Positions 26,014 to 51,434 of a stretch of DNA of 64,000 nt are shown here, piece by piece. Under the pieces are notes generated by a model that did not search any database, was not told the DNA's origin, and saw nothing but the letters and a program-made list of their open reading frames with translations. Each line of letters opens with the position of its first letter. Positions within the stretch are counted from its first letter, which is position 1. Both the position numbers and the translations under genes were made by a program. The DNA comes from a bacterium (lineage in GTDB: Bacteria; UBA8248), in NCBI GenBank assembly GCA_965218885.1, contig OZ244713.1, forward strand, positions 240,601 to 304,600, given 5' to 3'.

Positions 26014-26014
26014 A

Positions 26015-36571: not shown

Positions 36572-36697
36572 ATGGTGCAGACGACACAAAAGAACATTCG
36601 CTTCACGCCGGAACAGTGGTAATGCGTCGAAAAAGAGGCGCTCGAGCGTAGGATAAGCCCGAATCGACTGGTGGTCAAGCTAGTGATGGAGACTTAA
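36572..36697 (+). pseudogene. CopG/RHH (ribbon-helix-helix)-like small ORF interrupted by an in-frame TAA
   Basis: It reads MVQTTQKNIRFTPEQW-(TAA at 36620-36622)-CVEKEALERRISPNRLVVKLVMET. The pattern of a beta-strand (IRFTPEQ) followed by two helices is RHH-like. AAAGGA lies upstream. Confidence 0.3.
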
Positions 36698-37392
36698 AGC
36701 GCCGGGAATAGCTGCTACCGGATGCACGGGAGAATCTCGCCTGGTGCGCTGGCTGGTCAGATTGCGTCATTCCTGATATGTGGTCATCCTTGGAGGGCCC
36801 CAAGTTCAGGCCAAGGCAATTCGTTGTAACCTTGACCACCTCCTGAAAGTCACAGTTTCTGATTCTACGCCATCACAAAATCCAAGAATATTTGAAATCC
36901 ACGGAGCAAAAATCCAAGAGTTTGATCTTTCCTTACAAGGATGATCACGTAAAGTTGGCAATCTTCCTCGTTCCATACTCCGAAGTCGACTGAAAAGTTG
37001 CTCAACATGTGAGGATTTGGATTGAAAATTCAAATTGCATTTGCTCCGAATGGTCACTCCGTTGTTGAAAAAACGAAAGGCGAGCGGAAAAGAGGTTCGT
37101 CAATTGTACATAAATGGATGAGACAACTTTTTGTGAATATTTCTCATGATTCCAAAATGAAGAATGTTTAGACACAGACAACTGCAGGCATAAGGAAGAA
37201 TCGAGCTACCTCTGAAACTGTAAAAAAGGAACTATCAGCTTTCTTCATTTCCACACTGTACCTTTGCTTCGTATTGACGTTCGTCGCCGGTTTCTCAACC
37301 AACCCACGCGCAGGGGTTTCAAAACAAAGCTTCAGCCAGCACATCCTTGACGAAGTGCGGCGTATCGCCAGCAAGAGGAGGGGACAGAGTAC

Positions 37393-37420
37393 TTGACAGT
37401 AGCCACATTTATACTACTAT
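37393..37420 (+). promoter_or_regulatory. Sigma70-like promoter candidate for the cargo module
   Basis: TTGACA (37393-37398), a 16-nt spacer and TACTAT (37415-37420) sit about 45 nt upstream of the ATG at 37467, in an AT-rich region. Confidence 0.4.
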
Positions 37421-37466
37421 AAATATAGAAATGCGACACATGGGACTCTTCCACGAGGTGCTCTGA

Positions 37467-39398
37467 ATGACTCTACTCAATCGTAGTGTATCATCCTGTT
37501 CTTTGGTGTGCGCCCTATCCCTTTATCTCATATTCGTGGTCGGCACCGGTTTCCAGCCCGCTCACGCGCAGGGTCTCCCGGACCTCGACGAGATACAAAA
37601 GATCATCGACGAGGCGCGGAGCATCGTCGCCAAGGCGAAGGAGTGCGTGGGGATAGCGGACGAAGCGGAAAGAAATGCGGGCTCGGCAGGCGATGAGAAA
37701 GACAAAGCGAAAAACAACGGGACGAAAGCATCAATGTACAGTATGACGGCGGTAGGCAAAGCAGAGATGGTCGCAACAGAAAAGATGAATGCGGAAACGG
37801 CGGCGAATCAGGCAGAGAAAGCGGCGAAGGATGCGGCAGCAGCAGCGCAAGCGGCGAAGGATGCGGCGGAGGATGCGGCAGACGACGTCGTCGAAACTTT
37901 CATCTCAGAAGCAATGGCCGAAACAGTCTGCATCCAAGGTATCAGCTGTAAGCCGACTTCTGGTGGTTACACAACGACTGAGCCAAGGAAGCCAACGGAT
38001 AAAGATATAGAAGAAGCGGAAAGAGCATTAGAAGATGCGAAAAAAGCCGTGTTGGAGGCGAATGCGGCTGCAACAAGAGCAGAGGATGCGGCGGGGGATG
38101 CGGCGGCGGCGGCGAAAGCGGCGAGAATGGCTGCTGAGAATGCAGCGATAGCAGGAGAGGCGGCGAGAAAGGCTGTTGAAGATGCCGCGGATGATGCAGA
38201 AGATGCGGCGGCGGCGGCGAAAAGGGCAGCGACAGCGGCGAGGGAAGCGGCAAGGTCGGCTGAAGAGGCTGCAGGCTACCTGGATAAACAGCGATATGCA
38301 TCTGTGGCAGGGTATGTAGATGCAGCGCGCAAGGCGGCGGATGCCGCAAAGGGAGAAGCGGATACAGCGAAAAAGGCGGCGGAAAATGCTGGAAAGTATG
38401 CCATGGATGCGGCGATGGCGGGAGATGTAGCCGGAGCGCGCGCGACGGATGCGGGAGAGGCGGCGGATAAGGCAAATGAAAGGGCAACAGCAGCGCGTAC
38501 ACACGCGGCGGCGGCGAGACGCTGCGCCGAGCATGTTTCCGAGAGGGAGGCGACGCTTGCATCGGCCCGTGCGGCCTCCGCCTATCTCTCGCGCACTGTG
38601 GTGAACCGGGTCCAGAAGCTGCGCCCCTCTGGCGGAAGCAGTTTCAGCAGGCCGGCGCGGACTTCGAGCAATTTGACCGGACTCAACGCAGGCGACAATA
38701 TGGTTCCTGATTATCCGGCGAATTTGGCGGTGGATGTCGGCTACAGCAAATCGAGCGGCGGGGAAGGCCTCTTCGAGACCCGTTCGAGTTACGTTCTCGT
38801 GATGACGGACACGTTGCTCACCCCGCAGCGTCTGATCGGCTTCGGCGTGGGCACGGAATACACCCGCGAGTCGTTGCTGGGAGGGACGCAAAGACGGACG
38901 CGCGGCCTCACGGCGACGGCCTATCTGGCGGAAATCCTCAATAAAAACTTTACTCTCGTGCCGCAGGCGGCGCTCACCTATCTGAACAAAAACAAGAAGT
39001 TCACTCCGACGCCGGAAGATGCTGAAAGAGGGATACGCACGCTTTTTTCACTGACCATGCTCGGGCAGAAACAATGGGGCAAGGTGGAATTAAGCGGTTT
39101 TGGCCAACTCGCTTATACACATGAAGGTGGTGGCGACTCCATCTACCTTGGACAGGCGATTGCAGGCGGGGAATTCGCGTTTGCGGTGAAAACCGATGCT
39201 CGTCTGTTTGTAGGCGCGTCGATGGGCTACGACTTGGTGCGAAGCGAATCTACTAGCGATCGGTTCAGTTATGACGGGAAGGTCGGTCTTCGTTCCCCGT
39301 TAGGCTCTAGAGCCGAGCTTAGCCTGTCGATATCCACCAGCAGGAAAGACGAAGAGGAAACGACGAGCGGCAACGTTTTCGTGAAGATTTTCTTCTAA
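37467..39398 (+). CDS. Autotransporter-like outer-membrane protein: signal peptide, Ala-rich alpha-helical passenger, C-terminal beta-barrel
   Basis: The signal peptide ends in the AHAQG cleavage region. About 330 aa of Ala/Glu/Lys-rich repeats follow (AAKDAAEDAADD..., AARKAVEDAADDAEDAAAAAKRAA). The C-terminal ~250 aa are rich in alternating hydrophobic residues and end in VFVKIFF. A terminal aromatic residue is typical of OM beta-barrels. Confidence 0.65.
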   Translation: MTLLNRSVSSCSLVCALSLYLIFVVGTGFQPAHAQGLPDLDEIQKIIDEARSIVAKAKECVGIADEAERNAGSAGDEKDKAKNNGTKASMYSMTAVGKAEMVATEKMNAETAANQAEKAAKDAAAAAQAAKDAAEDAADDVVETFISEAMAETVCIQGISCKPTSGGYTTTEPRKPTDKDIEEAERALEDAKKAVLEANAAATRAEDAAGDAAAAAKAARMAAENAAIAGEAARKAVEDAADDAEDAAAAAKRAATAAREAARSAEEAAGYLDKQRYASVAGYVDAARKAADAAKGEADTAKKAAENAGKYAMDAAMAGDVAGARATDAGEAADKANERATAARTHAAAARRCAEHVSEREATLASARAASAYLSRTVVNRVQKLRPSGGSSFSRPARTSSNLTGLNAGDNMVPDYPANLAVDVGYSKSSGGEGLFETRSSYVLVMTDTLLTPQRLIGFGVGTEYTRESLLGGTQRRTRGLTATAYLAEILNKNFTLVPQAALTYLNKNKKFTPTPEDAERGIRTLFSLTMLGQKQWGKVELSGFGQLAYTHEGGGDSIYLGQAIAGGEFAFAVKTDARLFVGASMGYDLVRSESTSDRFSYDGKVGLRSPLGSRAELSLSISTSRKDEEETTSGNVFVKIFF

Positions 39399-39462
39399 AA
39401 GAATCAGGGCCGAACTTAATCGGGAGAGCACGGCAATCGGGGAAAAGCTAAGGAGTTTAATC

Positions 39463-40836
39463 ATGAAAAACGTGACGATGAAGCGCAGCAAAACCGACCG
39501 CTCATCTCTTGGAAGTCGGATGTTTCTCGGAATCACCTTCGCTTTGTTGCTGGCCACGGTAACGGGGTGCGATCCAGAGGTCTTACAGGGAGCTCGAGAA
39601 GTTATGACTGCGGTGCAGGATGCTGCGTCGCGTGAGGTTGAGACCACGAGGATTCTGGAGGAGGAACGGAGGCGTAGTGAGGAGGAGCAGAGGCGTAAGG
39701 AGGCCCATGCGGCAGATATGGCCCGGAAGCAAACGCTTCAGGAGTTGATGGAGGATAAGTTAAAGGGTAAGGGGGGTAAGACGAAGGTGGACCCCCAGAA
39801 GGGGGAGGTGACGGTGCAGGGGAAGGATACGACACGAATCATCGGTCAACCTAAAGGACAGATGCCGAAGAAAACCGAGCGAGCTGGATGCGATCTGCGA
39901 CCGCTCAGAGCGGGCAGAAAATTTGTTGCCGAGGCTTGGGCGTTACCGGACAGCAAGTTCAATTTCGGCGAACCGCTCGCCTTTCAGATGCGGGTGAGTT
40001 CTCCCACCTATATGAGCGTCTTCCATGTAAGCACGTCTTGTAAGGTGATGCGCTTGCTGGACAACATGCCCGTGAAGGCGGCCGAGATCGTCGATTTTCC
40101 GTTGCGGGACAGTGGTATGAAGATAGTCGTGAGGCCGCCGGCGGGGATGGAAGCTTTCTATCTCATCGCTACCCGGAAAAAATTGGAGTTTCTGGCCAGT
40201 GCGGATATCCTGAGTACCGGAGGGAGTGGAATTGCGCGTCTCGACCTCAGCCCGAAGCAATTCTACCAGAGAGTGAAACAATTCCGCGACCGCATAAACC
40301 CGGACGATCTGAGCATGAGGACGCTCCTTATATCCAAGATGACAAGCGCGCCGAAGAAGACCAAGCGTGCCGGATGTAACCTGCGGCCGCTCAGAGCGAG
40401 CAGAAAATTTATTGCCGAGGCTTGGGCGGTACCGGATAACAAGTTCAATTTCGGTGAACCACTCACCATTCAGATGCGGGTGAGTTCTCCTACCTATATG
40501 AGCGTCTTCCATGTGAGCACGTCCTGCCAAGTGACGCGCTTGTTGGACAACAAGCCCGTGAAGGCGGCCGAGATTGTCGATTTTCCGTCGCGGGACAGCG
40601 GTATGAAGGTAATCGTGAAGCCGCCGGCGGGCAGGGAGGCTTTCTATCTCATCGCTACCCGGGAAAAATTGGAGTTTCTGGCCAACGCGGATATCCTGAA
40701 TAGCGGAGGGGGTGGAATCGCGCGCCTCTACCTCACCCCGGAGCAATTCTACCAGAGAGTGAAACAGTTCCGCGACCGCATAAACCCGGACGATCTGAGC
40801 ATCAGGTCACTCCGCATATCGATTATCGGCAATTGA
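39463..40836 (+). CDS. Lipoprotein with two tandem DUF4384-like domains
   Basis: The signal peptide plus lipobox LLLATVTGC marks a lipoprotein. Two 162-aa repeats begin at PKKTERAGCDLRPL and PKKTKRAGCNLRPL. Each has the DUF4384-type core YMSVFHVSTSC(K/Q)V(M/T)RLLDN. RBS AAGGAG lies upstream. Confidence 0.6.
   Translation: MKNVTMKRSKTDRSSLGSRMFLGITFALLLATVTGCDPEVLQGAREVMTAVQDAASREVETTRILEEERRRSEEEQRRKEAHAADMARKQTLQELMEDKLKGKGGKTKVDPQKGEVTVQGKDTTRIIGQPKGQMPKKTERAGCDLRPLRAGRKFVAEAWALPDSKFNFGEPLAFQMRVSSPTYMSVFHVSTSCKVMRLLDNMPVKAAEIVDFPLRDSGMKIVVRPPAGMEAFYLIATRKKLEFLASADILSTGGSGIARLDLSPKQFYQRVKQFRDRINPDDLSMRTLLISKMTSAPKKTKRAGCNLRPLRASRKFIAEAWAVPDNKFNFGEPLTIQMRVSSPTYMSVFHVSTSCQVTRLLDNKPVKAAEIVDFPSRDSGMKVIVKPPAGREAFYLIATREKLEFLANADILNSGGGGIARLYLTPEQFYQRVKQFRDRINPDDLSIRSLRISIIGN
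39865..40836 (+). repeat. Tandem direct repeat of ~486 bp (two units, 39865-40350 and 40351-40836) inside the lipoprotein gene
   Basis: The nucleotide and protein sequences of the two units are nearly identical (ccgaagaaaaccgagcgagctggatg... versus ccgaagaagaccaagcgtgccggatg...). Confidence 0.8.
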
Positions 40837-40943
40837 GTGAACACCCGGCGTACGAGTGAAGTTGGAAATGGACGAACTGGTTCCATGGAAATTGTTCGGA
40901 GGGCGATATCTTTCCACTCAAATCAGGATGGAGGAAAAGGACA

Positions 40944-41576
40944 ATGAAGATCACATCACGTTTCAGTTCCATTGGGGCCGTTGTCGTGGCCATCGTGGCT
41001 GTCGTAGCGCTCCAGGCTGCGGGGGTGGGCTCATACGATGCGTCGGCGGAGTCTTATATGAAGGATCTCGACATCCGTCAGATACCTATGGCGAAAATCC
41101 AGCCGGCAAAGCCGAGCGGAGCGAGCGCCGCTGCGGGTCTGGCCGTCAACGCCAGCGTAAACCGGGCAAACCGTAAGTATAAACATGGCGAGAACGTCGT
41201 GCTGACTGTCAAGGCCACGGAAGACGCCTATATCTGGGTGTTTGACACGGGAACCAGCGGCAAGGTGCATCAGATATTCCCCAACCGTTACGAGAAGAAT
41301 AATTTCGTGAAAGCCAAAGCGGCGCTTCGTATTCCCGGAAAGGGATCTAAGTATATGCTTACGGCTTCCCGTCCCAAGGGCGCGGAGTTGATCACGGTCA
41401 TCGCGTCGAAAACAAATGCCCCTTTGACCCCGACGATGATCGCCAAAGGTAACGGAAGCAGTCCGTTCCTGGCATTGAACGGTACGGCGCAATCGGTGGC
41501 GAAGGATTTGTCGATCACCTTGCGCAAAAAGCATCGTGTCTGGGCCAGGGCTCAGCAGGTTATTCTTATCGACTAG
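40944..41576 (+). CDS. Secreted DUF4384-domain protein
   Basis: The N-terminal signal/TM segment is FSSIGAVVVAIVAVVALQAAG. The DUF4384-type core is DAYIWVFDTGTSGKVHQIFPNRY. Confidence 0.6.
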   Translation: MKITSRFSSIGAVVVAIVAVVALQAAGVGSYDASAESYMKDLDIRQIPMAKIQPAKPSGASAAAGLAVNASVNRANRKYKHGENVVLTVKATEDAYIWVFDTGTSGKVHQIFPNRYEKNNFVKAKAALRIPGKGSKYMLTASRPKGAELITVIASKTNAPLTPTMIAKGNGSSPFLALNGTAQSVAKDLSITLRKKHRVWARAQQVILID

Positions 41577-41606
41577 ACATCGAATCGGTACCTGGAGGGA
41601 CGCATC

Positions 41607-43643
41607 ATGAGGCTCTTATCGCGTTTCCGATCGTTGTTTCCCGTATCCGCAGCTTCCCTTGGGGTGATGACCGTCGTTTGCCTGTATTGCATGGTTGTGC
41701 CGACACCGCTGGCAAACGGGGGGGAGATCGTCATGTCCGACGACATCATCCTTCAAATGAAGCCCAAGCCTCGTACGAGAGGGATCGCTTCGGAGTCTAC
41801 AAAGACAAGTCCGGGCAGAGTTATTCTTCCAGCCATCCAATTTGAGATCGATTCAGCCCGGTTCACGCGTACCGCCTTGGCGCAGGTGCGGGAACTGGGG
41901 AAAGCCCTCAAATCCGACGTTCTCAGAACGTTTATGTTTGCGGTGCAAGGCCACACGGACAGCACTGGGAGTAGCCCATACAATCGGGGTTTGTCCTTGC
42001 GGCGCGCCCGCGCGGTGACGCGCTACCTTAAGGGCGAAATGGGCGTGGTTGGAGGCCGGCTGATCGAAGTCGGGCTGGGAGAGAGCTTCCCGATCGACGG
42101 GATTCCGACGACGGACGCGAGAAACCGGCGTGTCGAAATAACAAAACTTGGAGACGGGGCGCCCGCCGAAGATGTAAGGCGTAACCGGAGGCGGGCGCTT
42201 CTCATCGGAATCGACAAATACGGGCACGTGTCTCCCTTGAAGGGCCCGGTGAACGACGCCAAGGACATGGCGAACTTCATTACAGGACGCGGAGGATTCA
42301 AGAGCAGTGATGTCCGGCTTCTGCTGGATGCAGAGGCGACAAAGAAAAATATTCTCGCTACAGTCAAGAAATGGCTGGTCGACGGAACAAATGCCGGAGA
42401 TGAGGTGTTCCTGTTCTACAGTGGCCACGGTTTTCAACAACCCGACTTGGACGGAGACGAAAAAGACGGCCTGGATGAAACACTGGTCCCGGTCGATGCA
42501 TTTGTGGATGAGGACGGCAAGATAAAAGGAATGATTACGGACGACGAACTCGGAGTGCTTTTGGGTCGTCTGTCCGATCGCCGCGTGCGTGTAGTGGTAG
42601 ATGCCTGCCATTCAGGCACGAGTGCCAGAAGCGCGGGAGGCTCGGAAAGTTGGAAATACGTCAAGACGCCTCGCCTGCCGGATGGTTCACCGATTCGAAT
42701 CGCCCGTACGCGTGGCCTGGGGGGCAAGGAAGAGTCTCGGCAGGAATCCCTTTTGGTGTCGAACGATCCCGATTTCGCCATCTGGACGGCCGTCAGGTCA
42801 GACCAGAAAGCCCTGGTTGACAGAGAAGTCATGGGTCGTTCAGGCGGTGGAAGTGTGTACACGAGACGTCTGCTCTGGGGAGCGCGCGATGGAAAGGCTG
42901 ATGAGAACCGCGACGGCATCGTGACGATGGAGGAACTCTACCGTTATGTGCTCAAAGAATCCGAGGAGTATTGCAAGCGATATTCCGATGATTGCCGCCT
43001 CGGCTTGACGCCGCAAGTTCAGGTGGCGTCGGGCCGGCTCGAGATTCCCGCGTTTGGAAATGCGTACGCGAGTTTGCCGCGAAACGCCACTCTTGCAAAA
43101 GATATTTTAGTACGTCCGTCGAGTCGACCGGCATCAAGAGGGAAAAGCGGCGTCCGGTTGCGAATCGACCCGGGCTCGAATCTCGTGCTCGGGGCCAATC
43201 TGGATATCATCGTCGAAAGTGACCGCAAGGGATATCTTGTATTACTGGATATAAATGCAGCTGGAGAATTGGTTCAGATATTTCCCAATGAAGGGAGCTT
43301 ACGTAGCGGTGTTTCCTCCTTGATACGTCCAAGCGAGCCTGTACGGCTACCAGGAGAGAAAGCCGGGTTTCGCTTTCGAGCAACCCCGCCAGCTGGTTCT
43401 GGCCTCCTTGTCGCCGTTGTGACCCAAAAGAATGATCGGGTTTGGGAGTTGGCTTCGCGGCATAAAGATCTGAGTGTGGTGCCGTCTCCGGCGGCCTATC
43501 TCGTTGAGATTGGAGAAGCCCTCCGTGCTGGTTCTTCAGTACCCAATAATGCCCGTGGTTCTGGTTGGAGTGTTGCGACGCTACAATACAAAATCGCTTT
43601 ACCCGATTCGGGCCGAAATAAGTCATCAAATGATGCGAGATGA
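41607..43643 (+). CDS. Multidomain envelope protein: N-terminal TM, OmpA-like peptidoglycan-binding domain, caspase-like peptidase C14 domain, C-terminal DUF4384
   Basis: The OmpA_C-like block is HTDSTGSSPYNRGLSLRRARAV. The caspase His-Cys dyad lies in FLFYSGHGF...RVVVDACHSGT. The DUF4384 core is GYLVLLDINAAGELVQIFPNEG. RBS GGAGGGA lies upstream. Confidence 0.75.
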   Translation: MRLLSRFRSLFPVSAASLGVMTVVCLYCMVVPTPLANGGEIVMSDDIILQMKPKPRTRGIASESTKTSPGRVILPAIQFEIDSARFTRTALAQVRELGKALKSDVLRTFMFAVQGHTDSTGSSPYNRGLSLRRARAVTRYLKGEMGVVGGRLIEVGLGESFPIDGIPTTDARNRRVEITKLGDGAPAEDVRRNRRRALLIGIDKYGHVSPLKGPVNDAKDMANFITGRGGFKSSDVRLLLDAEATKKNILATVKKWLVDGTNAGDEVFLFYSGHGFQQPDLDGDEKDGLDETLVPVDAFVDEDGKIKGMITDDELGVLLGRLSDRRVRVVVDACHSGTSARSAGGSESWKYVKTPRLPDGSPIRIARTRGLGGKEESRQESLLVSNDPDFAIWTAVRSDQKALVDREVMGRSGGGSVYTRRLLWGARDGKADENRDGIVTMEELYRYVLKESEEYCKRYSDDCRLGLTPQVQVASGRLEIPAFGNAYASLPRNATLAKDILVRPSSRPASRGKSGVRLRIDPGSNLVLGANLDIIVESDRKGYLVLLDINAAGELVQIFPNEGSLRSGVSSLIRPSEPVRLPGEKAGFRFRATPPAGSGLLVAVVTQKNDRVWELASRHKDLSVVPSPAAYLVEIGEALRAGSSVPNNARGSGWSVATLQYKIALPDSGRNKSSNDAR

Positions 43644-43950
43644 CATGAAATTTCAAAAAGCAGCCGTTGAATGTCGCTCCTCCTTCACCGTGCTCGTTGG
43701 AATTTTCTGTTTTTTGGTCATAGTTCAATACATTCCCTTGGTTGCGTATGCCGAGGGGTCGGGTGAAATGAGAGATTCCATCCGGAAACTCACAGAACCG
43801 GTTATCAGATCCGTTCGCTCCGCTACTCGACCTACCCATAAGACTACCCATGACGACGCTGGTCTTGTCAAAGACACGCCTGAGGATGATTCTCGAAAAA
43901 AAGGTGTTTCGTCCACTTCGGATAGAAATCAATCTTCTGACGCCCAATGA
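43629..43950 (+). CDS. Small secreted protein duplicating the N-terminal leader motif of the WD40-caspase
   Basis: MMRDDMKFQKAAVECRSSFTVLVGIFCFLVIVQYIPLVAYAEGSGEMRDSIRKLTEPVIRSVRSATRPT... aligns with the N-terminus of the downstream protein (ADAQGFGRLRHSIRNLTRPVIRSVRTVIRPL...TRDEAGPV). Its start overlaps the stop of the upstream caspase gene. Confidence 0.5.
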
Positions 43951-43951
43951 T

Positions 43952-46396
43952 ATGAAGCGCCAAATAACAGCTGATAGGCATTGCTCCTGTTCCATGGCGG
44001 TCATTGGGCTATTTTGTCTCTGGGTTGTGACGGCATGCATTCCACCTGCTGCGGACGCCCAGGGATTTGGTAGATTGAGGCATTCCATTCGAAACCTCAC
44101 ACGCCCGGTCATCAGATCGGTTCGCACCGTCATTCGTCCCCTCCTCAATATCACCCGCGACGAAGCCGGCCCGGTCACGGAGCTACATACGGATAATGCC
44201 CGGAGTTTTCTGTTCACCGTGCTTGGAGATGGAAGCGCCAGGTTGTGGGACCTTCGGCGTGGAGTGCAATTGGGTGGGGCTTTTGGAAGTGAACTCGCTT
44301 CAGGCGCCATCCGTGGAGAGGGGAACGCCTTGGAAGCCATAGCCGTCAGCAGAGACGGCTCGTCGATCTCCATACGTCCAGACGGCTCGGTCCAGCAGAT
44401 TGGCGAGAAGATTGAAGGAATCGACCCAGTAGTCATACCCGTTCTGTCGGGGAATGGGAATGTCGTAGCGTATCGTAGTGAGGTTGACGGCGGCTGGTAT
44501 GTGAAGCGGGATGGTTCCGATCAGGCCGAACGGCTACCTGGTGCCGATCCTGATAGCCGACCTATCCTCTCCTCGGATGGAGTGAAGGTCGCTTACCGAA
44601 CAGTCCGGGGGACGATTGCCGTGAAAGGCGCGCTTCGCGGTGGGACGGCAGAAATCGAAGGTTGCGAGAGCGAAATTCCGGTAACAGCGGGAGCCTATAC
44701 ACCTGATGGCGAGCGAGTGATATTAGGGGATGAAGAAGGCAACATTTGCGTTTGGCGCATCCCCGAACATGAAGTTCCGAGGCGGATTTTCGTGCAAGAG
44801 GCAGCTCATTCCGGCTCGATTCGACTCCTCGTGCTTGACCAGGATGGAATCCATGTCTCTACAAGTGGAGAAGATGCGGCGGTAAACATCTGGGTCGTGA
44901 CGTCTGAAATTCGCCCAGTGGCTTCGCTGAAGCTGGCCATAGAGTCCGCAACTTCGCTTTTGATGGACGTTAGCAGAAGGTGGGTTTTCGTCGGAGAATC
45001 GAGAGGAACGGTTGGAATCTATTCGTTCAATGAACTGGCGCGCATCGCGCGCTTGATTTCCACGGATGTCGGATGGGCAGTTCTTGACCGAAAAGGCCGA
45101 TTCGATGGACCTCAAAATGGTGTCGATGCGCTGGTATGGGCAGGTGAGACAGCGGCGCAAACTCTCCCGGTCGATGCGTTCTCCGAAAGCTATTTCGAGC
45201 CTGGACTGATGGGGAAACTTGGTGGCAAACCGCAACCTTTCCTGAACGAAGACGTTCGCGATCTCTCTGAAGACGGCTACATTGCGCCGCCGAGTGTCTC
45301 GATCGATCCGATTGACAGTCTTCAGGTCGATGCCGAAGGGCGTTCAAGGGTCAATATCCGGTTGGCCCCGAACTATCCAAGGCGGGACGTGCTCGAAATC
45401 AGGCTATATCACAATGGAAAACTCGTTCCTGCCGAGAAGATGGTCTCCGATCCTACTGGCAAGATCATCGAATATGCGATTCGACTCCTACCGGGAGAAA
45501 ACACCTTCAAAGCGATCGGGATCGGTCCGGGAGGGGTCGAAGGCCAACCGGCGTTAGTGACGGTGGCGGTTACCGAACCTGAACTGCGTCGGCCCAGGAT
45601 GCAGGTAGTCGCCATCGGTATCGGCGATTACGTTAGGCCTGACTGGAAGCTCGAATCCACTCGTAACGACGCAAATGCCGTCGTCTCGGCGCTGCGTAAC
45701 CGGAGTGGCAACTTGTACAGTGACGTGGACGTGGTTTCATTGTTAGATTCTCACGCCAAGGCGACCATGATTGAAAATCACATTTCCGGAAAATCGCAAT
45801 CGCCCCAGGATGTTCTGGTGGTCTTTTTTGCGGGTCACGGCTATGCGTTGCAGGAGAAGGGGAATAAGGGTAGCTGGGAATGGTATCTTCTCCCGTACAC
45901 GCATGCTTGGAACACGAGGACAGAGGGAAAAATCGAGATGATACGACGGTATGGGATTCCCAGTCGTCGCTTGATGCGTTTGCTGACGAAAACCCAGGCG
46001 CAGCGCGTATTCCTCATCCTCGATTCGTGCCGCTCCGGCGCGGTTGTTGACGCCGTTTCCTCCTCCACGGGAAGGGCGCTCGACGATGCCGTCGGACAAA
46101 AAACTTTGCGCAGAATCGCGCGTGTGGGCGGCATTCACATCCTGGCGGCTTCGCGAGCGGATGAGGATGCAATCGAACTGCTCTCCGTGCCACACGGCGC
46201 TCTGACCTATCTGATCCTCGAGGGTATCCGGGGGGCGGCGGATGAAAATCTAAACGGGAAGATTTCTGTTGGTGAGATCATTAGATATGCGACGAGGGAG
46301 ATGCCCCTTCTCTCCCAGCGGCTTGTCAAAGAGACTATCAGCCAGAAGCCCGTCGGCTATTCACGCGGGGCGGACTTCGCGCTCGCCGGATTGTAA
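43952..46396 (+). CDS. Secreted WD40-repeat (beta-propeller) protein with C-terminal caspase-like peptidase C14 domain
   Basis: The signal peptide is MKRQITADRHCSCSMAVIGLFCLWVVTACIPPAADAQG. WD-like repeats include GDGSARLWDL, EEGNICVWRIPE and AAVNIWVV. The C-terminal caspase His-Cys dyad lies in VVFFAGHGY...VFLILDSCRSGAV. Confidence 0.75.
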   Translation: MKRQITADRHCSCSMAVIGLFCLWVVTACIPPAADAQGFGRLRHSIRNLTRPVIRSVRTVIRPLLNITRDEAGPVTELHTDNARSFLFTVLGDGSARLWDLRRGVQLGGAFGSELASGAIRGEGNALEAIAVSRDGSSISIRPDGSVQQIGEKIEGIDPVVIPVLSGNGNVVAYRSEVDGGWYVKRDGSDQAERLPGADPDSRPILSSDGVKVAYRTVRGTIAVKGALRGGTAEIEGCESEIPVTAGAYTPDGERVILGDEEGNICVWRIPEHEVPRRIFVQEAAHSGSIRLLVLDQDGIHVSTSGEDAAVNIWVVTSEIRPVASLKLAIESATSLLMDVSRRWVFVGESRGTVGIYSFNELARIARLISTDVGWAVLDRKGRFDGPQNGVDALVWAGETAAQTLPVDAFSESYFEPGLMGKLGGKPQPFLNEDVRDLSEDGYIAPPSVSIDPIDSLQVDAEGRSRVNIRLAPNYPRRDVLEIRLYHNGKLVPAEKMVSDPTGKIIEYAIRLLPGENTFKAIGIGPGGVEGQPALVTVAVTEPELRRPRMQVVAIGIGDYVRPDWKLESTRNDANAVVSALRNRSGNLYSDVDVVSLLDSHAKATMIENHISGKSQSPQDVLVVFFAGHGYALQEKGNKGSWEWYLLPYTHAWNTRTEGKIEMIRRYGIPSRRLMRLLTKTQAQRVFLILDSCRSGAVVDAVSSSTGRALDDAVGQKTLRRIARVGGIHILAASRADEDAIELLSVPHGALTYLILEGIRGAADENLNGKISVGEIIRYATREMPLLSQRLVKETISQKPVGYSRGADFALAGL

Positions 46397-46404
46397 ATCA
46401 AGAG

Positions 46405-47334
46405 GTGGCGCTGCGCCCTGCACCGGATACTAGTTATGTGGACAAGAGACGTTACTCTCAAGTGTTCTTCGTTGTTCTTGCATGCATGATGATTGGTTGC
46501 ACAGCGTTGGGGTATAAGGGCGCATCTGGAATCTGTCCGCTTCCGGCATGTTCGGATTGGAAATATCGACGCTTTATACACAACGGAATTCCGGTAATCG
46601 GTTTCCAGAAACCGGGTCGTCGCCTAGGCCGCATGGTCGTCTATATCGAGGGGGACGGAAATGCGTGGAGTAGTCGCTCGCGGGTTTCGAGTGACCCCAC
46701 CCCGGATGATCCGGTCGCTCTCCGTTTGGGGTTGCGTGATCCGGACCCTGGCGTTCTTTATTTGGCGCGGCCCTGCCAATATGTCGGCAGGAAGTTCATC
46801 GCCAGTTGTAATCCTTCACTCTGGACAGCTGCGCGATATTCACTGGAGGTTATCGAAGCGATAGATCGCGCAATCACGTCTTCAAAGCTGTCTGCCGAAG
46901 ATCGTCTCACACTCGTCGGATATTCCGGTGGAGGTGTCATCGCGACGCTCTTGGCGTCGCGCCGTCTGGATGTGGATGAATTGGTCACGGTCGCTGCGCC
47001 TTTAGACATCGCCGCCTGGACAAACCACCACCGGGTCTCACCTCTCAAAGATTCCCTCAATCCGTCCGAGCGCGTGCCCGCCTACGGTAAGGCGCGTGAA
47101 TTTCACTTCCATGGCGGACGGGACCTGGTGGTGCCTCCCGTGGTTGTTGAGCAGTATCGCCGACAAGCGTCACGAGCAAACGTCCATTTTTTCACTGTTT
47201 CCGAGTTCGAGCATCAATGTTGCTGGGTGCGCGACTGGCCAAAGTTCTTGTCGATGATTCGAGAACGCAGAATGCATTCAAAGGTGTGTGTAACCCCTAA
47301 AATGGGAGAAGTTTCACGTTCTTCAGAACGTTAA
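46405..47334 (+). CDS. Alpha/beta-hydrolase lipoprotein (GxSxG nucleophile elbow)
   Basis: The hydrophobic leader ends in VVLACMMIGC, a lipobox-like sequence. The GYSGGG motif is followed by a region with conserved D and H. The likely start is the GTG at 46438. Confidence 0.6.
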   Translation: MALRPAPDTSYVDKRRYSQVFFVVLACMMIGCTALGYKGASGICPLPACSDWKYRRFIHNGIPVIGFQKPGRRLGRMVVYIEGDGNAWSSRSRVSSDPTPDDPVALRLGLRDPDPGVLYLARPCQYVGRKFIASCNPSLWTAARYSLEVIEAIDRAITSSKLSAEDRLTLVGYSGGGVIATLLASRRLDVDELVTVAAPLDIAAWTNHHRVSPLKDSLNPSERVPAYGKAREFHFHGGRDLVVPPVVVEQYRRQASRANVHFFTVSEFEHQCCWVRDWPKFLSMIRERRMHSKVCVTPKMGEVSRSSER

Positions 47335-47465
47335 TGCTGCTAGATATTTGAACTTCTGCTGCTGGTGGCTTGGTCCAAGTGATTTTAATTTTCTTTTACC
47401 GGAATATTGAGATCTGACTCGCTCGGCAGACCAAAGACTGTTAGCGAAACGACTAGGAGGACACC

Positions 47466-48527
47466 ATGAAAACGAAATCCTTAACTGCAATGCTATCGGC
47501 TTCTTTGCTATTCATGCTCATGCCGGAATACATACACGCTGATGAGAAACTCTCCATTAAGGCCTACAGGCACCGAGGATGCATTCTTCCTCCTACTAAT
47601 ATAAACCGTCTGGCAAGAAATTCGCACATAGGTCTTGAGATGGAGTTTTCATATCCAAAAGACCCTAAAAACACTAAACAGATTGACACTGCAATTCTAT
47701 CTTGTATGGGAGACGTTGAGGAGAAGCGATTGAGTTGTAATGATGCGGTTGAGTTGCCATGGTCGGCCCTGGAAGAACTAAATTCTTTGGAACCCTTTGC
47801 GGGAGCAAAATGTGAGGACCAGTTCAAGAGTGAGGTCCGTAAGTGTTTGGACTACTACGAACAGAAGACATCGAAATGTCACGCTTTAGGACGTGGGGTT
47901 CCTTTGTCGAAGGGGGCATCCTTGTGGGAAGAGTTGATACCAGACGATAGTCCTAGTGGCAACTATGAAGAACTGCCACCAAGTGACGACCACCTCTATA
48001 AAACCCGGAAAGACCAGAAAGGAGGCCCAGCGGACAATTGGAAAAAATGGGTAGAGGGGAACCTGCCAGGGAATAAAATGGGAGATATGGGGATAGATAG
48101 AAAAGGGGGAGATATGCCCTCCTCGGGCTATTCTGGAGCAAAATTCCGAGATCCGAACCCCACGGGCAAATCTGGAGTAGACTTGAAAGACCTGATTCGG
48201 CTAGAGGAGCGAGAAATGCTCGAAGAGGAGAAAAAGGAGTATGGGACCCTAGGTTCTCCGGGTGGTCCAATAAACCCTGGAGGTGCAATGAATAAGAAGA
48301 GGAACGATGCTTGTGAGCGAGCTAAACGTAGAGCTGCGCAGACAATACCCCGCATCACTCCGAGCAGATCAATGTGCACAACCTATCGAACTGCTTTACG
48401 TATGTACGAAAGTGTAAGACGGATCCTGAGCAGTAACGGCTGCCCCGCGCACGAGGTAAGGCAATACGATCAGGCGATTGCGCAAACAAAGCTCGGAGTG
48501 CGCGCGGTCTGTGCGGATATTCGCTAA
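47466..48527 (+). CDS. Secreted cysteine-rich hypothetical protein, lower GC than surroundings
   Basis: The signal peptide is MKTKSLTAMLSASLLFMLMPEYIHA. The protein has about 14 Cys, a Gly/Pro/Lys-rich central region, and no recognisable domain. Confidence 0.5.
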   Translation: MKTKSLTAMLSASLLFMLMPEYIHADEKLSIKAYRHRGCILPPTNINRLARNSHIGLEMEFSYPKDPKNTKQIDTAILSCMGDVEEKRLSCNDAVELPWSALEELNSLEPFAGAKCEDQFKSEVRKCLDYYEQKTSKCHALGRGVPLSKGASLWEELIPDDSPSGNYEELPPSDDHLYKTRKDQKGGPADNWKKWVEGNLPGNKMGDMGIDRKGGDMPSSGYSGAKFRDPNPTGKSGVDLKDLIRLEEREMLEEEKKEYGTLGSPGGPINPGGAMNKKRNDACERAKRRAAQTIPRITPSRSMCTTYRTALRMYESVRRILSSNGCPAHEVRQYDQAIAQTKLGVRAVCADIR

Positions 48528-49213
48528 TGCCGCTCCTGCAGTCGGTTTGGCTACCGTATTTAGGCCTTTTCTGGATTCCGCTATGTCCTTGCTTTTGGTG
48601 CGGGTGAACTTGGTGGACGCCCAAGTTTCTTCTCGCTATTTTGATGAGCGCTCCAAAGTATGGGGCGCATCGCATTCTCCGGATCTCATGCCCGCACACG
48701 ACACCGCGTTGCACGAATCGTCCTGTAGCGTCACCATCTTCAGTCTAGAACTGGATTCTATAGGCTAAGTAATCTTTTCGTGCTTTGATATAGACGTAGA
48801 TCCTAAGAACAAGTCCAAACCATCCAGCACGATTAAAAATAACGGAAAAACTTCGTAGGGTATGTGGCCTCTAAAGAGCTTGCCATGTAATTGTTCGTCG
48901 CCATATTCTTCGTCGGGCTGGAGTGTGAACACATCGACCAGTGTTCATTGCGTACTAATACTGAGATGAGCTAAAGCGGGCTTATCCGGAGGCTAAGTAG
49001 CAGAACTTGCCCCCACTCAGGAGATTATGGTTGCTATAATCGACTACGCTGCGGGCGGGATCTGAGCCGTCATTCGGCGCGAGTTGGTGGTTCCCGGATG
49101 AACGATGTGGGGTGCCGAAGCGTGAGCGCAATCAAGCCGTCACAAACCGGACTTTGGAAGATGTTCTGACAGGGACGCTCCAGGATGCGCGGGAGTTTGA
49201 ATTCCTCCGCTTC

Positions 49214-49230
49214 CGTTTTGATTACATATT
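49214..49230. repeat. 17-bp direct repeat, right copy (candidate attR)
   Basis: cgttttgattacatatt is identical to 24809-24825. It lies in an AT-rich non-coding stretch just before the MMPL gene. Confidence 0.45.
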
Positions 49231-49346
49231 GAAGAAAGTGGATTTGGAACAAGATTTCGAATCATGCCTGTATCCCAATGATATCAACAGGATAGAAGGA
49301 TTTCAGGGCTGATGGAAATACCCTAACGCCTCTAAGCGGGCGTATA

Positions 49347-51434
49347 TCATGGTTCCCTTCGGTCGAGAGCCATCAGCAGGGGCGGAAGTAGCAGGAAGTC
49401 GGTGAGGAGCCCGAAGATAATCGTAATCGAGACCATCAGACCGAGTGTCCAACTTCCTTCGTAGCCCGACAAGGTGAACACCAGGAAGCCCGCCGAGAGG
49501 ACCACGGTCGTGGTCCATAGCGCATGGCCCACGGTTCGAAAGGTGGTGCGAACGGCTTCGGGCGCGGAGAGGCCCTCCTTTCTCCGGGCTTTCATGTATT
49601 TGCTCAGGAAGTGGATTGTATCGTCCACGATGATTCCGAAAGCGATTATGGTCATCACCGAACCGGCGAGGCTCACCCGGCCGACCATATAGTCCCAGAG
49701 GCCGAAACTCATGGCCGCGGGAATGAAGTTGGGCACGAGGCTGATGAGGCCGAGGCGCAAACTCCTGAAAACCAAAATCAGAATAAACGAAATAAGGGTC
49801 ATGCCGATGAAAGTGCCGCGCAGCATGCTTTCCATGTTTCTCTGGGTGAGATGAGCGAAGATCATGCTCAAACCCGATGCTTCGCCCGCAAGGCCGGGCA
49901 TGCTGGCGCGGAGCCAGGCCTGCGCTCGCGAATCGAGTTCACGCAGGCCCCGAGCCGAAACGCCCTGGACCGTGACGGTCATGCGCGTTGCGGATTTGGC
50001 GACGTCGATGCGGTCGTTCAAGTTGCTGCCGAAAGGAAGTGAAAACTCATAGAGCAGCAGATATTGCGCGGCGAGTTCGGGGTCCTCCGGCACTTTGAAG
50101 AAGGCCGGGTCGTCGCCGTGCATGTTCTTGTTCAGGCGCTTCATGACGTCCGAGAAGGCACGGACGTGGCTCACTTGTGGCTGCTTTCGGTACCAATCGG
50201 CGAAGGCCTCGACCTTTTTGAGATACGCGGGATTGGTGATGCCGCCTTCGCGCCCGGATTTCAGGGAGTATTCCAGCGAATTCAGGCCGGTCAGGTTTTT
50301 AATGACGAAGTCCGTATCGCGCCGGAACCGGTAGCGCTCGTCGAACTGCTTCGTCCAATCCTCGCTCAACTCGTTGCGGGGAATGCCGGTGAGCAGGGCA
50401 ATCGTCAAAAGGGCGACGAAGCAGAGCAGAAACTTGCGGCGTTCGACGATGAAGTCGCCGAAGCGCTCGAAAAAAGGGGACCTGTCGGTGCGGACAGTAC
50501 GCGCACGCAGCGGCAGAAGCGATAGCAGCGCAGGCAGAAGCGTCATGGAGTAGAAAAAGACGGACAGCACCCCGAACGCCACGAGATTTCCCAGTTCCCG
50601 GAAAGGCGGTGAATCGGAAGTGTTCAGGCTCAGGAACCCGATCGCTGTCGTGAGCGAGGTCAGAAACACCGGCCAGATGTTGCTGCGGAGCGATTCCACA
50701 ATCGCTGCGCTCTTTGCCATGCCATTTCGCATGGCAAAGAGAACAGCCGTGACGATATGGACCGAATGGGCAACGGCTATCACCATGACGATAATCGGCA
50801 GACCTGCGGTGATGGGACTGAACACCAGACCGACCCACCCCGTGAAGCCCATGGTGGTGTTGATGGCGAAAATGATCACGAAAACGATGGCCAGGGTGCC
50901 GAGCAGCGAGCGCAGCAGTAGCGCCGTGCCGATCAGGACGACGAAAAAGGCGATCGAGCCGAGGTTTTTCATGCTGTTCGCAGTAGCGTCGGCGACGGTA
51001 CGGTTCAAGACGACGTCGCCCGTCAGATAGTATGAGATGTCGGGATGGCTCTCGCGGGCCTTGCCAAGAATGGCGTTCAGATAATCGGTTATTTCGACTG
51101 CTACGTTGTCTCTTTTTTCGGGCATGACGAAATTGATCGCCAGCCCGCCTACGCGCCCGTCTTGGGAAACGAGGCGCCCGGCGATGTCCGACGCGTTCAG
51201 CGCGATTTTCCGGATTCGCGCGAGGTCGGCGTCGCTCAGCGCGCTCGCGTCGTCGACGAGTGGCTCGACGATCAGATCATCCCCTTCCGCCCGGCTGTGA
51301 GTGTAGTTCGTGAGGGAATCGACCCGGCTGGAATGAGGTGCCTTCCATGCGGCTTCGGTCAACTCCTCGATGGCGCGAAGAGCTTCCCTGGTGAACACCG
51401 GGCCCCTCCGATCCGTGGCTGTGCAGGGCAGCAC
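49347..51434 (-). CDS. MMPL/RND-superfamily transporter, N-terminus (TM1) not accounted for
   Basis: The ORF covers the first periplasmic loop, TM2-6, the second loop and TM8-12 (GIIVDDTIHFLSKYM...). Two TGA codons lie in-frame immediately upstream. The only upstream open frame, MRNERDARFDREIGAWFG..., has no TM helix. Confidence 0.7.
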   Translation of the reverse strand: MLPCTATDRRGPVFTREALRAIEELTEAAWKAPHSSRVDSLTNYTHSRAEGDDLIVEPLVDDASALSDADLARIRKIALNASDIAGRLVSQDGRVGGLAINFVMPEKRDNVAVEITDYLNAILGKARESHPDISYYLTGDVVLNRTVADATANSMKNLGSIAFFVVLIGTALLLRSLLGTLAIVFVIIFAINTTMGFTGWVGLVFSPITAGLPIIVMVIAVAHSVHIVTAVLFAMRNGMAKSAAIVESLRSNIWPVFLTSLTTAIGFLSLNTSDSPPFRELGNLVAFGVLSVFFYSMTLLPALLSLLPLRARTVRTDRSPFFERFGDFIVERRKFLLCFVALLTIALLTGIPRNELSEDWTKQFDERYRFRRDTDFVIKNLTGLNSLEYSLKSGREGGITNPAYLKKVEAFADWYRKQPQVSHVRAFSDVMKRLNKNMHGDDPAFFKVPEDPELAAQYLLLYEFSLPFGSNLNDRIDVAKSATRMTVTVQGVSARGLRELDSRAQAWLRASMPGLAGEASGLSMIFAHLTQRNMESMLRGTFIGMTLISFILILVFRSLRLGLISLVPNFIPAAMSFGLWDYMVGRVSLAGSVMTIIAFGIIVDDTIHFLSKYMKARRKEGLSAPEAVRTTFRTVGHALWTTTVVLSAGFLVFTLSGYEGSWTLGLMVSITIIFGLLTDFLLLPPLLMALDRREP

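What the first reader, a model, noticed from the sequence alone, without database searches (positions are those of the whole stretch)
43629..44180. Stand-alone duplicate of the WD40-caspase N-terminal leader motif
The 107-aa ORF has its own signal peptide. After it comes ...AEGSGEMRDSIRKLTEPVIRSVRSATRPT..DDAGLV. The mature N-terminus of the next gene reads ...AQGFGRLRHSIRNLTRPVIRSVRTVIRPL..DEAGPV. The shared motif is (R/H)SIRxLTxPVIRSVR. It lies directly after the signal cleavage site, which suggests a sorting signal, a propeptide or inhibitor, or a recognition tag for the caspase module. It may be encoded separately as a decoy or substrate.
Basis: seen in the sequence. Interest (0 to 1): 0.6.

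Follow-up and report, generated by a model that had tools for sequence, protein, structure and literature searches.

The report
Leader-only paralog of a bacterial caspase
A 307-base tandem duplication across the boundary of two caspase-like protease genes created a small, conserved, probably secreted protein that carries only the signal peptide and arginine-rich leader of the larger protease; it is likely a regulator or decoy, but its function is untested.

Summary
The ORF at 43630..43950 (106 aa) matches the first 84 residues of the next gene, a WD40 + Peptidase_C14 protein (43952..46396). The match is 44% identity, ungapped, E=7e-19, and it includes the signal peptide as well as the motif.

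The cause is one tandem duplication of about 307-310 bp across the boundary between the upstream OmpA-metacaspase-DUF4384 gene and the WD40-caspase gene. The small ORF is a chimera. Codons 1-84 of the WD40-caspase are fused in frame to a copy of the upstream gene's last ~18 codons and its TGA.

The ORF is intact at the same position in 8 loci, and 5 further database variants exist. It is found only in the clade whose WD40-caspase is at least 68% identical to the window's. Its 28-codon core (IRxLTxPVxxSVR) is under purifying selection (pN/pS 0.23, p=5e-7). The signal peptide and acidic tail drift.

The motif was found in no other protein architecture, so a general sorting signal is unlikely.

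Best reading, by inference: a co-translated, exported, leader-only paralog that modulates the WD40-caspase. This resembles CARD-only decoys of caspase-1 and MntS/SitA. Substrate and translational-relay readings remain open.

The parts
41607..43643 (+). Gene A: secreted OmpA-like + metacaspase-type Peptidase_C14 + DUF4384 protein (678 aa). Its last ~18 codons and its TGA (43641-43643) are the template for the 3' end of the small ORF.
   Evidence: Pfam OmpA, Peptidase_C14 and DUF4384. PDB sequence hit to yeast metacaspase Yca1, 4f6o, E=4e-25. Tail homology.
43585..43894 (+). Duplication unit 1 (about 310 bp): 3' end of gene A + TGAcATG junction + codons 1-84 of the copied WD40-caspase 5' end.
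   Evidence: Offset scan: 15-23 of 30 identical at offset 307 from 43615 to 43870, and 15-17 of 30 at offset 310 from 43585 to 43615; background is about 7.5.
43895..44201 (+). Duplication unit 2 (about 307 bp): copy of the gene A 3' end (now the small-ORF tail) + TGAtATG junction + codons 1-84 of the real WD40-caspase gene.
   Evidence: The BLASTP alignment ends at residue 84 of gene B, which is residue 89 of the small ORF.
43630..43950 (+). Small ORF, 106 aa. Possible starts are 43630, 43633 and 43645. The 43645 ATG lies 1 nt after gene A's TGA.
   Evidence: Intact in L001-L004 and L081-L083. Database variants P0121-P0128.
43630..43752 (+). Predicted signal peptide of the small protein (aa 1-41, ending A-Y-A).
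   Evidence: Sequence features. A39 and A41 are invariant in 7 orthologs. AlphaFold helix 3-41.
43765..43818 (+). Conserved core of the small protein, EMRDSIRKLTEPVIRSVR (aa 46-63). Predicted amphipathic helix.
   Evidence: Invariant E46 I51 R52 L54 T55 P57 V58 S61 V62 R63. pN/pS 0.23, p=5e-7. Variable sites by codon position 14/11/24. AlphaFold helix 46-65 at low confidence.
43897..43950 (+). End of the tail of the small protein, derived from the gene A 3' end (KKGVSSTSDRNQSSDAQ*), with the stop codon copied from gene A. It lies within the polar, acidic tail that AlphaFold leaves unstructured from aa 66 onward.
   Evidence: Global alignment against shuffles: window p=0.0005; the sum over 7 loci is 7 sd above null. 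No secondary structure from residue 66 onward, with pLDDT below 50 for 66-90.
43952..46396 (+). Gene B: secreted WD40 beta-propeller + Ig-like linker + Peptidase_C14 protein (814 aa). ATG lies 1 nt after the small ORF's TGA; no Shine-Dalgarno motif.
44060..44140 (+). Leader of gene B (aa 37-63, QGFGRLRHSIRNLTRPVIRSVRTVIRP). Arg-rich (+7) and amphipathic, between the A-D-A cleavage site and the first propeller strand.
   Evidence: AlphaFold helix 40-56 with pLDDT below 50, not docked.

Best explanation
**What it is (shown).** A single tandem duplication of about 307-310 bp spanned the junction between the upstream metacaspase gene (gene A) and the WD40-caspase gene (gene B). The upstream copy became a new 106-codon gene. 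It consists of gene B's start codon, signal peptide, leader and first blade residues (codons 1-84), fused in frame to a copy of gene A's last ~18 codons and gene A's TGA. That TGA sits 1 nt before gene B's ATG.

The event happened once, in the ancestor of the clade whose gene B is at least 68% identical to the window's. The ORF has been kept open since. Purifying selection acts on the core I-R-x-L-T-x-P-V-x-x-S-V-R.

**How it most likely works (inferred).**
- The small ORF and gene B both lack a ribosome-binding site and sit in TGAnATG junctions. The three genes are therefore probably translated as a coupled chain, A then small then B. Small protein and WD40-caspase would be made together in similar amounts.
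- The small protein is exported by its own signal peptide and cleaved after A-Y-A.
- In the periplasm it presents the same amphipathic helix as the WD40-caspase leader, but with a near-neutral head and an acidic disordered tail. The parent leader carries +7.
- It therefore acts in trans on the leader-dependent step of the WD40-caspase. It either pairs with the cationic leader or occupies the leader's docking partner.
- In this reading it is a non-catalytic decoy or regulator. Closest analogies: CARD-only proteins next to caspase-1, plant microProteins, and MntS derived from the SitA signal-peptide region.
For: **Duplication anatomy**
- BLASTP 44% over 84 aa, E=7e-19, ungapped; DNA collinear.
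- The offset scan gives unit boundaries at about 43585, 43895 and 44201.
- The small-ORF 3' end matches the gene A 3' end: window p=0.0005, L003 p<0.0005, 7 loci summed 7 sd above shuffles.

**Conservation**
- Intact ORF in the same place and frame in L001-L004 and L081-L083.
- Five more variants among the 8 hits (sequences).
- Absent from orthologous loci at 63% identity or less.

**Selection**
- The other two frames carry 3-9 stops. The chance of no stop under neutral substitution is 2-10% per lineage.
- The core has 14/11/24 variable sites by codon position.
- pN/pS is 0.23 in three independent pairs (Fisher p=5e-7), equal to gene B's own leader. Deep-branch omega is 0.44-0.94, against 0.08-0.16 for gene B's leader.
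- There is no within-genome homogenisation with gene B's leader.

**Coupling**
- Shine-Dalgarno motifs precede g1, g2, gene A and g6, but not the small ORF or gene B.
- In most of the small-ORF loci gene B's ATG follows the small ORF's stop (TGA or TAA) by 1 nt; L082 has an ATGA overlap and in L083 the small ORF runs past gene B's start. Outgroup L014 has an ATGA overlap of gene A and gene B.

**Trans-acting helix**
- AlphaFold predicts helix 40-56 in gene B and helix 46-65 in the small protein, not docked onto the propeller.
- Hydrophobic moment is 0.57-0.82.
- The leader is cationic across the family, mean +5.3. The small-protein head is 0 to +2 and the tail is net neutral to -8, acidic in all but one ortholog.
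- Mature positions 5 and 8 are S/G and S/N in the nearest outgroups. They became R and R/H in gene B, and E and D/H in the small protein.

**Precedents**: PMC3775265 (CARD-only proteins arose by duplication next to caspase-1 and act as decoys); bioRxiv 10.1101/2023.06.02.543501 (MntS evolved from the SitA signal-peptide region).
Against: - There are no expression, localisation or binding data.
- AlphaFold confidence for the leader helix is low in both proteins (pLDDT below 55), and no complex could be modelled.
- Signal-peptide cleavage is read from the sequence only.
- The opposite-charge pattern rests on two positions and three sub-clades.
- Overall dN/dS of the small ORF is high (0.4-0.85), and the signal and tail show no codon-position bias. 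Only about 28 codons show clear constraint.
- Selection to keep the ORF open could come from translational coupling alone.
- The function of the leader in the parent protein is itself unknown.
Confidence: 0.4

Rival explanations
1. Substrate or competitive inhibitor. Metacaspase-type enzymes cleave after Arg or Lys. The Arg-rich leader would be a propeptide that gene A or gene B removes. The small protein keeps R52 and R63 and would be an alternative substrate that titrates or delays that processing.
For: - Gene A's protease domain is metacaspase-type (Yca1 4f6o, E=4e-25) and has the acidic DLDGDEKDGLDE stretch.
- Orthocaspases are described as cleaving after basic residues (abstract of PMC6426788).
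- The leader has 7 Arg in 27 residues, is predicted flexible and undocked, and is Arg-rich across the family despite sequence drift.
- R52 and R63 are invariant in the small protein.
Against: - Specificity of these two enzymes was not tested. Gene B's protease domain has no sequence hit in the PDB.
- The non-basic residues I, L, T, P, V, S and V are conserved as strongly as the arginines. That fits a docking surface better than a set of cleavage sites.
- The small protein lost several of the leader's arginines.
Confidence: 0.2
2. Translational relay with no peptide function. The duplication put 307 bp between gene A's stop and gene B's SD-less start. Ribosomes must now read through the insert to reach gene B's ATG. 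Selection therefore keeps the frame open, and keeps a working signal peptide so that the by-product is cleared. The peptide itself does nothing.
For: - Neither the small ORF nor gene B has an SD motif, and both sit in TGAnATG junctions.
- The signal and tail regions evolve with dN/dS 0.5-1.4 and no codon-position bias.
- Gene callers missed the ORF in L001-L003.
Against: - A relay needs only an open frame. Yet the 28-codon core has pN/pS 0.23 (p=5e-7), the same as the functional leader of gene B, and 10 invariant residues.
- Gene conversion from gene B cannot explain this. Small-ORF cores are no closer to their own genome's gene B than to others.
Confidence: 0.15
3. Export or sorting tag. The motif after the cleavage site would direct the mature protein to a location such as the outer membrane, peptidoglycan or the cell surface. 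The small protein would then be a second cargo, or a competitor for the sorting machinery.
For: - The position is fixed directly after the A-x-A site in about 90 orthologs.
- The helix is cationic and amphipathic.
- The neighbouring gene A has a peptidoglycan-binding OmpA-like domain.
Against: - The motif is in no other protein architecture among 1.84 billion representatives. The hits are the two families, one fusion artefact and repeat-sequence false positives.
- It occurs only twice in the window and once or twice per locus.
- The leader sequence is poorly conserved across the family beyond its Arg content.
- The small-protein copy has lost the positive charge.
Confidence: 0.1

Closest known systems
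CARD-only proteins (COP/CARD16, INCA/CARD17, ICEBERG/CARD18) next to human caspase-1
   Same: - Small non-catalytic proteins made by tandem duplication of the N-terminal, non-protease part of a caspase gene.
- Encoded beside the parent gene and restricted to a young clade.
- Described as decoys that regulate the parent caspase (PMC3775265).
   Different: - The copied module here is not a folded death-fold domain. It is a signal peptide plus a helical leader of about 25 residues.
- The setting is the bacterial periplasm.
- The product is a chimera that also carries a neighbour gene's tail.
- No interaction has been shown.
[quoted passage not shown]
   Same: A bacterial small protein derived from the 5' end, including the signal peptide, of a larger exported protein's gene. 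It was retained and given a regulatory role by binding another protein (bioRxiv 10.1101/2023.06.02.543501).
   Different: - MntS is under 50 aa, cytoplasmic or membrane-acting, and targets a transporter.
- Here the conserved part is the mature leader rather than the signal peptide.
- The parent gene is still immediately adjacent and translationally coupled.
microProteins (miPs) such as LITTLE ZIPPER and Id proteins
   Same: Small single-module proteins that are evolutionarily derived from a larger protein's interaction module. They act by forming non-productive complexes with it or its partners (PMC9638782, abstract).
   Different: - Those are eukaryotic, mostly regulators of transcription factors.
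- The defining physical interaction is demonstrated for them and not here.
YSIRK-G/S signal-peptide motif of Gram-positive surface proteins (from my own knowledge)
   Same: A superficial resemblance of letters (HSIRNL / DSIRKL) close to a signal peptide.
   Different: YSIRK lies inside the signal peptide, before the hydrophobic core, in Gram-positive bacteria. Here the motif lies after the A-x-A cleavage site, in proteins found in proteobacterial and Binatia MAGs. The conserved positions also differ.

Membership tests
Tandem segmental duplication | Two adjacent collinear units of equal length, with the end of unit 1 abutting the start of unit 2. | tested here: met
   Offsets 307/310. Unit 1 is about 43585-43894 and unit 2 about 43895-44201. 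Both halves are significant.
Domain-only decoy / microProtein (COP-like) | Small protein homologous to a non-catalytic module of a larger protein and lacking the catalytic domain. | tested here: met
   106 aa, homologous to residues 1-84 of gene B, with no propeller or caspase domain.
Domain-only decoy / microProtein (COP-like) | Maintained by selection, not a decaying pseudogene. | tested here: met
   ORF intact in 8 loci plus 5 further variants. Core pN/pS 0.23, p=5e-7.
Domain-only decoy / microProtein (COP-like) | Physically binds the parent protein or its partner and alters its activity. | not testable with these tools
   No multimer prediction or experiment was available. There is only an opposite-charge pattern at two positions.
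Small protein derived from a signal-peptide region (MntS-like) | Homology to the N-terminal export region of a neighbouring larger gene. | tested here: met
   The alignment starts at Met1 and covers the signal peptide.
Shared sorting signal / export tag | The same motif is present on several unrelated cargo proteins. | tested here: not met
   A profile search of 1.84 billion representatives found only the two families plus artefacts. Two copies in the window. Nothing in JGI metagenome contigs.
YSIRK-G/S signal peptide | Motif located in the signal peptide N-terminal to the hydrophobic core. | tested here: not met
   The motif starts 8-9 residues after the A-x-A site in both proteins.
Protease propeptide / inhibitor encoded in trans | The leader is removed from, or occupies the active site of, the protease. 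| not testable with these tools
   AlphaFold leaves the leader undocked at pLDDT below 50. No cleavage data exist.
Peptidase C14 (the parent gene B) | Caspase fold with a catalytic His-Cys dyad. | tested here: met
   Pfam PF00656 at 34.7 bits against a cut-off of 21.4. H629 and C693 invariant in 43 sequences.
Any curated protein family (the small ORF itself) | A hit above threshold in Pfam, NCBIfam or PADLOC. | tested here: not met
   No Pfam or PADLOC hit. The only NCBIfam hit scores 17.8 bits against a cut-off of 80.

The most novel reading that the evidence does not exclude
This would be a bacterial counterpart of the CARD-only decoys. A leader-only microprotein is born from a gene-boundary tandem duplication and co-translated with its parent. 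It pairs through complementary charges with the arginine-rich leader of a periplasmic WD40-caspase and gates that protease's activation or localisation. The cluster spreads horizontally among bacteria from different phyla that appear to be sponge-associated.
Probability: 0.25. Interest if true: 0.65.

Novelty: new variant of a known kind. Interest (0 to 1): 0.5.

Why it matters
- It is a cleanly dated case of gene birth in bacteria. One 307-bp duplication across a gene boundary gave a chimeric small secreted protein, which then came under purifying selection.
- Gene callers missed it in L001-L003, three of the six metagenome contigs whose gene calls were shown, and extended the next gene instead. 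This illustrates a class of small proteins that annotation loses.
- If it regulates the WD40-caspase, it gives a handle on two unknowns: what the conserved Arg-rich leader of this secreted caspase family does, and how periplasmic caspase-like proteases are controlled.
- It would also show that prodomain-only decoys evolved independently in bacteria and animals.

Tried and rejected
- **Database search with the window's small ORF alone** found nothing. The tool needs several shared 5-mers. A profile of 7 orthologs then found 8 clusters.
- **Homology of the small-ORF tail to gene B codons 71-125** was no better than shuffles. This led to testing the gene A 3' end, which was positive.
- **Concerted evolution or gene conversion** between the small ORF and gene B's leader: rejected. 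Within-genome identity (0.70) equals between-genome identity.
- **Lipoprotein reading of gene B** (V-T-A-C in the window): rejected, because the Cys is missing in L002, L082 and L083 while A-x-A is conserved.
- **RNA element in the interval**: no Rfam hit and no tRNA in the window.
- **Promoter and terminator scans** were at background level.
- **Foldseek of the gene B model** returned only generic WD40 propellers.
- **PDB sequence search with gene B's protease domain** found nothing useful.
- **JGI metagenome scan with the small-ORF profile** found no relatives.
- **Literature search** for sponge symbiont + caspase + WD40 gave nothing specific.
- **'The leader became cationic only after the duplication'**: weakened. 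Distant orthologs without the small ORF are also +3 to +8.
Full report
**1. The observation**

The window holds a run of same-strand genes:
- a 457-aa protein with two DUF4384 domains (39463..40836);
- a 210-aa DUF4384 protein (40944..41576);
- gene A (41607..43643), which has an OmpA-like domain, a Peptidase_C14 domain and DUF4384;
- the small ORF (43630..43950);
- gene B (43952..46396), with WD40-type repeats and Peptidase_C14;
- an alpha/beta-hydrolase-like protein (46405..47334);
- a 353-aa protein with no family hit (Pfam results).

BLASTP against gene B gives 44% identity over 84 residues, without gaps, E=7e-19. The DNA aligns collinearly. The match begins at the initiator Met. It therefore covers the signal peptide, the A-x-A site, the motif and the first residues of the first WD40 blade. 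The motif occurs only twice in the six-frame translation of the window.

**2. The parent protein and its leader**

Gene B has about 90 full-length relatives at 41-97% identity. All have a signal peptide and then a leader of 27-45 residues that runs into the first propeller blade (...AGxVxxL...DGSARLWDL). The caspase dyad His629/Cys693 is invariant.

AlphaFold (pLDDT 78.5) gives a confident propeller from about residue 64, a beta-sandwich linker and a caspase-like domain. The leader (residues 31-63) falls below pLDDT 50. It is drawn as a helix (40-56) that is not docked on the rest of the protein. Foldseek returns WD40 propellers.

The leader varies in sequence across the family but is always Arg-rich. 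Net charge is +1 to +8, mean +5.3.

Gene A's protease domain is metacaspase-type (yeast Yca1, E=4e-25). Gene B's is too divergent for a PDB sequence hit.

**3. Anatomy: one tandem duplication across a gene boundary**

A fixed-offset scan shows 15-23 identities per 30 nt at offset 307 from 43615 to 43870. It shows 15-17 per 30 at offset 310 from 43585 to 43615. Background is about 7.5.
- Unit 1 is about 43585-43894.
- Unit 2 is about 43895-44201.
- The end of unit 1 meets the start of unit 2.

The protein alignment with gene B ends at its residue 84, exactly at that junction.

The remaining 17 codons of the small ORF are not related to gene B's next codons. They are related to the last codons of gene A:
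- gene A ends ...GRNKSSNDAR-TGA-c-ATG;
- the small ORF ends ...DRNQSS-DAQ-TGA-t-ATG.

Global alignment of the 60 nt before gene B's ATG with the 60 nt before the small ORF's Met6 codon beats shuffles. The window gives p=0.0005, L003 p<0.0005, L002 0.0035, L004 0.01 and L081 0.017. The sum over seven loci is 7 sd above null.

The small ORF is therefore a chimera: gene B codons 1-84 plus gene A's C-terminal tail and stop codon. This explains why its stop always abuts gene B's start. An outgroup (L014) has gene A and gene B overlapping as ATGA, which is the arrangement the duplication needs.

**4. Distribution**

The cluster (DUF4384 genes, gene A, gene B, often the hydrolase) is syntenic in about 25 loci. 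They come from MAGs labelled Alpha- and Gammaproteobacteria, Binatia, Defluviicoccus and Candidatus Spongiihabitans. Several record titles suggest sponge microbiomes; that is my inference from the names.

The small ORF is present, intact and in the same place in every locus examined whose gene B is at least 68% identical to the window's: L001, L002, L003, L004, L081, L082 and L083. It is absent at 63% identity or less (L084, L012, L005-L024). A profile of the seven orthologs finds eight clusters of 78-112 aa in 5.8 billion proteins, five of them new. None carries a name or a Pfam domain.

Gene callers skipped the ORF in L001-L003 and extended gene B upstream instead. That explains the empty first search.

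**5. Is it a gene?**

- The ORF frame has no internal stop in any locus, while the other two frames have 3-9.
- With substitutions alone at the observed divergence, a neutral sequence would stay open with probability 0.02-0.10 per lineage.
- All length differences are in frame.
- In the 28-codon core, variable sites by codon position are 14/11/24.
- In three phylogenetically independent recent pairs, the pooled pN/pS is 0.23 (Fisher p=5e-7). This is the same as for gene B's own leader.
- Between the three sub-clades, omega is 0.44-0.94 for the small ORF against 0.08-0.16 for gene B's leader. That pattern suggests fast change after the duplication followed by constraint.
- The signal-peptide and tail segments show no codon-position bias, and dN/dS is 0.5-1.4.
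- Small-ORF cores cluster with each other, not with the gene B of their own genome. Gene conversion therefore does not explain the conservation.
- Invariant residues are A39, A41, E46, I51, R52, L54, T55, P57, V58, S61, V62, R63, S94 and S97.

**6. Expression logic (inferred)**

Clear Shine-Dalgarno motifs precede g1, g2, gene A and g6. None precedes the small ORF or gene B. The ATG at 43645 lies 1 nt after gene A's TGA, and gene B's ATG lies 1 nt after the small ORF's TGA. Most of the small-ORF loci keep such a 1-nt junction before gene B's ATG. L082 has an ATGA overlap, and in L083 the small ORF runs past gene B's start. This fits termination-reinitiation along A, small ORF, B, so the small protein and gene B would be made together.

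**7. What the product looks like**

AlphaFold predicts a signal-peptide helix (3-41), a second helix (46-65) over the core, and an unstructured tail. Confidence is low.

The helix is amphipathic, with hydrophobic moment 0.57-0.68, against 0.64-0.82 for the gene B leaders. The small-protein head is net 0 to +2, and its tail is polar and net 0 to -8. Gene B's leader in the same genomes is +6 to +8 with no acidic residue.

The small ORFs keep residues found in the nearest outgroup leaders (A-E-G after the cleavage site; V-M-E-S-V-R). Gene B's leader in this clade changed them to A-Q-G and V-I-R-S-V-R. At mature positions 5 and 8 the outgroups have S/G and S/N. Gene B fixed R and R/H, and the small protein fixed E and D/H. 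Opposite charges at the same two helical positions fit a direct pairing of the two helices. This is an inference from few sequences.

**8. Mechanism**

My best reading (confidence 0.4) is a leader-only paralog. It is exported with gene B and acts in trans on whatever the leader does, either by pairing with the leader or by occupying its docking partner. The steps have different standing:
- shown: origin, conservation, selection on the core;
- inferred from sequence: translational coupling, export;
- hypothesis: binding and regulation.

Rivals:
- a substrate or competitive inhibitor of the Arg/Lys-directed metacaspase-type enzymes (0.2);
- an ORF kept only as a translational relay to gene B (0.15), which the core's pN/pS argues against;
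- a sorting tag (0.1), which the absence of the motif from any other architecture argues against.

On the last point, a search of 1.84 billion representatives returned only the two families, one frameshift fusion (P0129) and repeat-sequence false positives. JGI metagenomes gave nothing. The remaining probability covers an unrelated new function.

**9. Comparison with what is known**

The small ORF belongs to no curated family.

In kind it is closest to the CARD-only proteins. Those arose by duplication next to caspase-1 and act as decoys (PMC3775265). It is also close to MntS, a bacterial small protein derived from the SitA signal-peptide region (bioRxiv 10.1101/2023.06.02.543501), and to microProteins in general (PMC9638782).

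It differs in four ways:
- the copied module is a signal peptide plus a short helix, not a folded domain;
- the product is a two-gene chimera;
- it is periplasmic;
- no interaction has been shown.

It is not a YSIRK-type signal, because the motif lies after the cleavage site.

**10. Verdict**

This is a real, conserved, mostly unannotated small gene with a fully resolved origin. Its function is plausible but unproven. I rate it a new variant of a known kind, with moderate interest (0.5).

Noticed in passing
window 24838-27190, and GC profile 36000-50000: Two tandem tyrosine integrases (Phage_integrase + Arm-DNA-bind_3) lie directly after a pyruvate carboxylase gene. They are followed by an AAA_30/UvrD_C_2 helicase (27814-30612, minus strand) and a YspA/SLOG protein (34966-35916). 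GC falls from 0.63-0.70 to 0.51-0.58 across the caspase/DUF4384 cluster. Together with the cluster's presence in several phyla, this suggests a horizontally acquired island.
   Followed up: partly
L013 5965-8492 (Binatia MAG OY729432.1): Gene B is split by a frameshift just after WD40 blade 1. This leaves a 5' ORF with the signal peptide, leader and blade 1, and a 732-aa remainder (P0078). It could be an assembly error, or an independent way of making a leader-only product.
   Followed up: partly
P0129 (366 aa, contig closely related to the window): In one assembly a frameshift near the end of gene A fuses gene A's C-terminus to the small ORF. The small-ORF part is identical to the window's.
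   Followed up: no
L001 2930, L002 3292, L003 6001 (gene calls): Automatic gene calls extend gene B 22-73 codons upstream in its own frame, across the small ORF, and omit the small ORF. That frame has stops in the window, L001 and L004, so the extensions are annotation artefacts.
   Followed up: yes
window 43585-43643 versus L003 and L004: Gene A's C-terminal extension (LPDSGRNKSSNDAR) is specific to this clade. Outgroup gene A proteins end soon after Y-x-[IV]-[VA]. In L003 and L004 an earlier stop truncates the extension, so this segment is only loosely constrained as coding sequence.
   Followed up: partly
window 37467-39398 and 47466-48527: The 643-aa and 353-aa ORFs flanking the cluster have no Pfam, NCBIfam or PADLOC hit. 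The 353-aa protein has relatives in several syntenic loci.
   Followed up: no
window 39463-40836: The 457-aa protein is an internal tandem repeat of two nearly identical halves of about 190 residues, each carrying a DUF4384 domain. This is another recent duplication in the same cluster.
   Followed up: no
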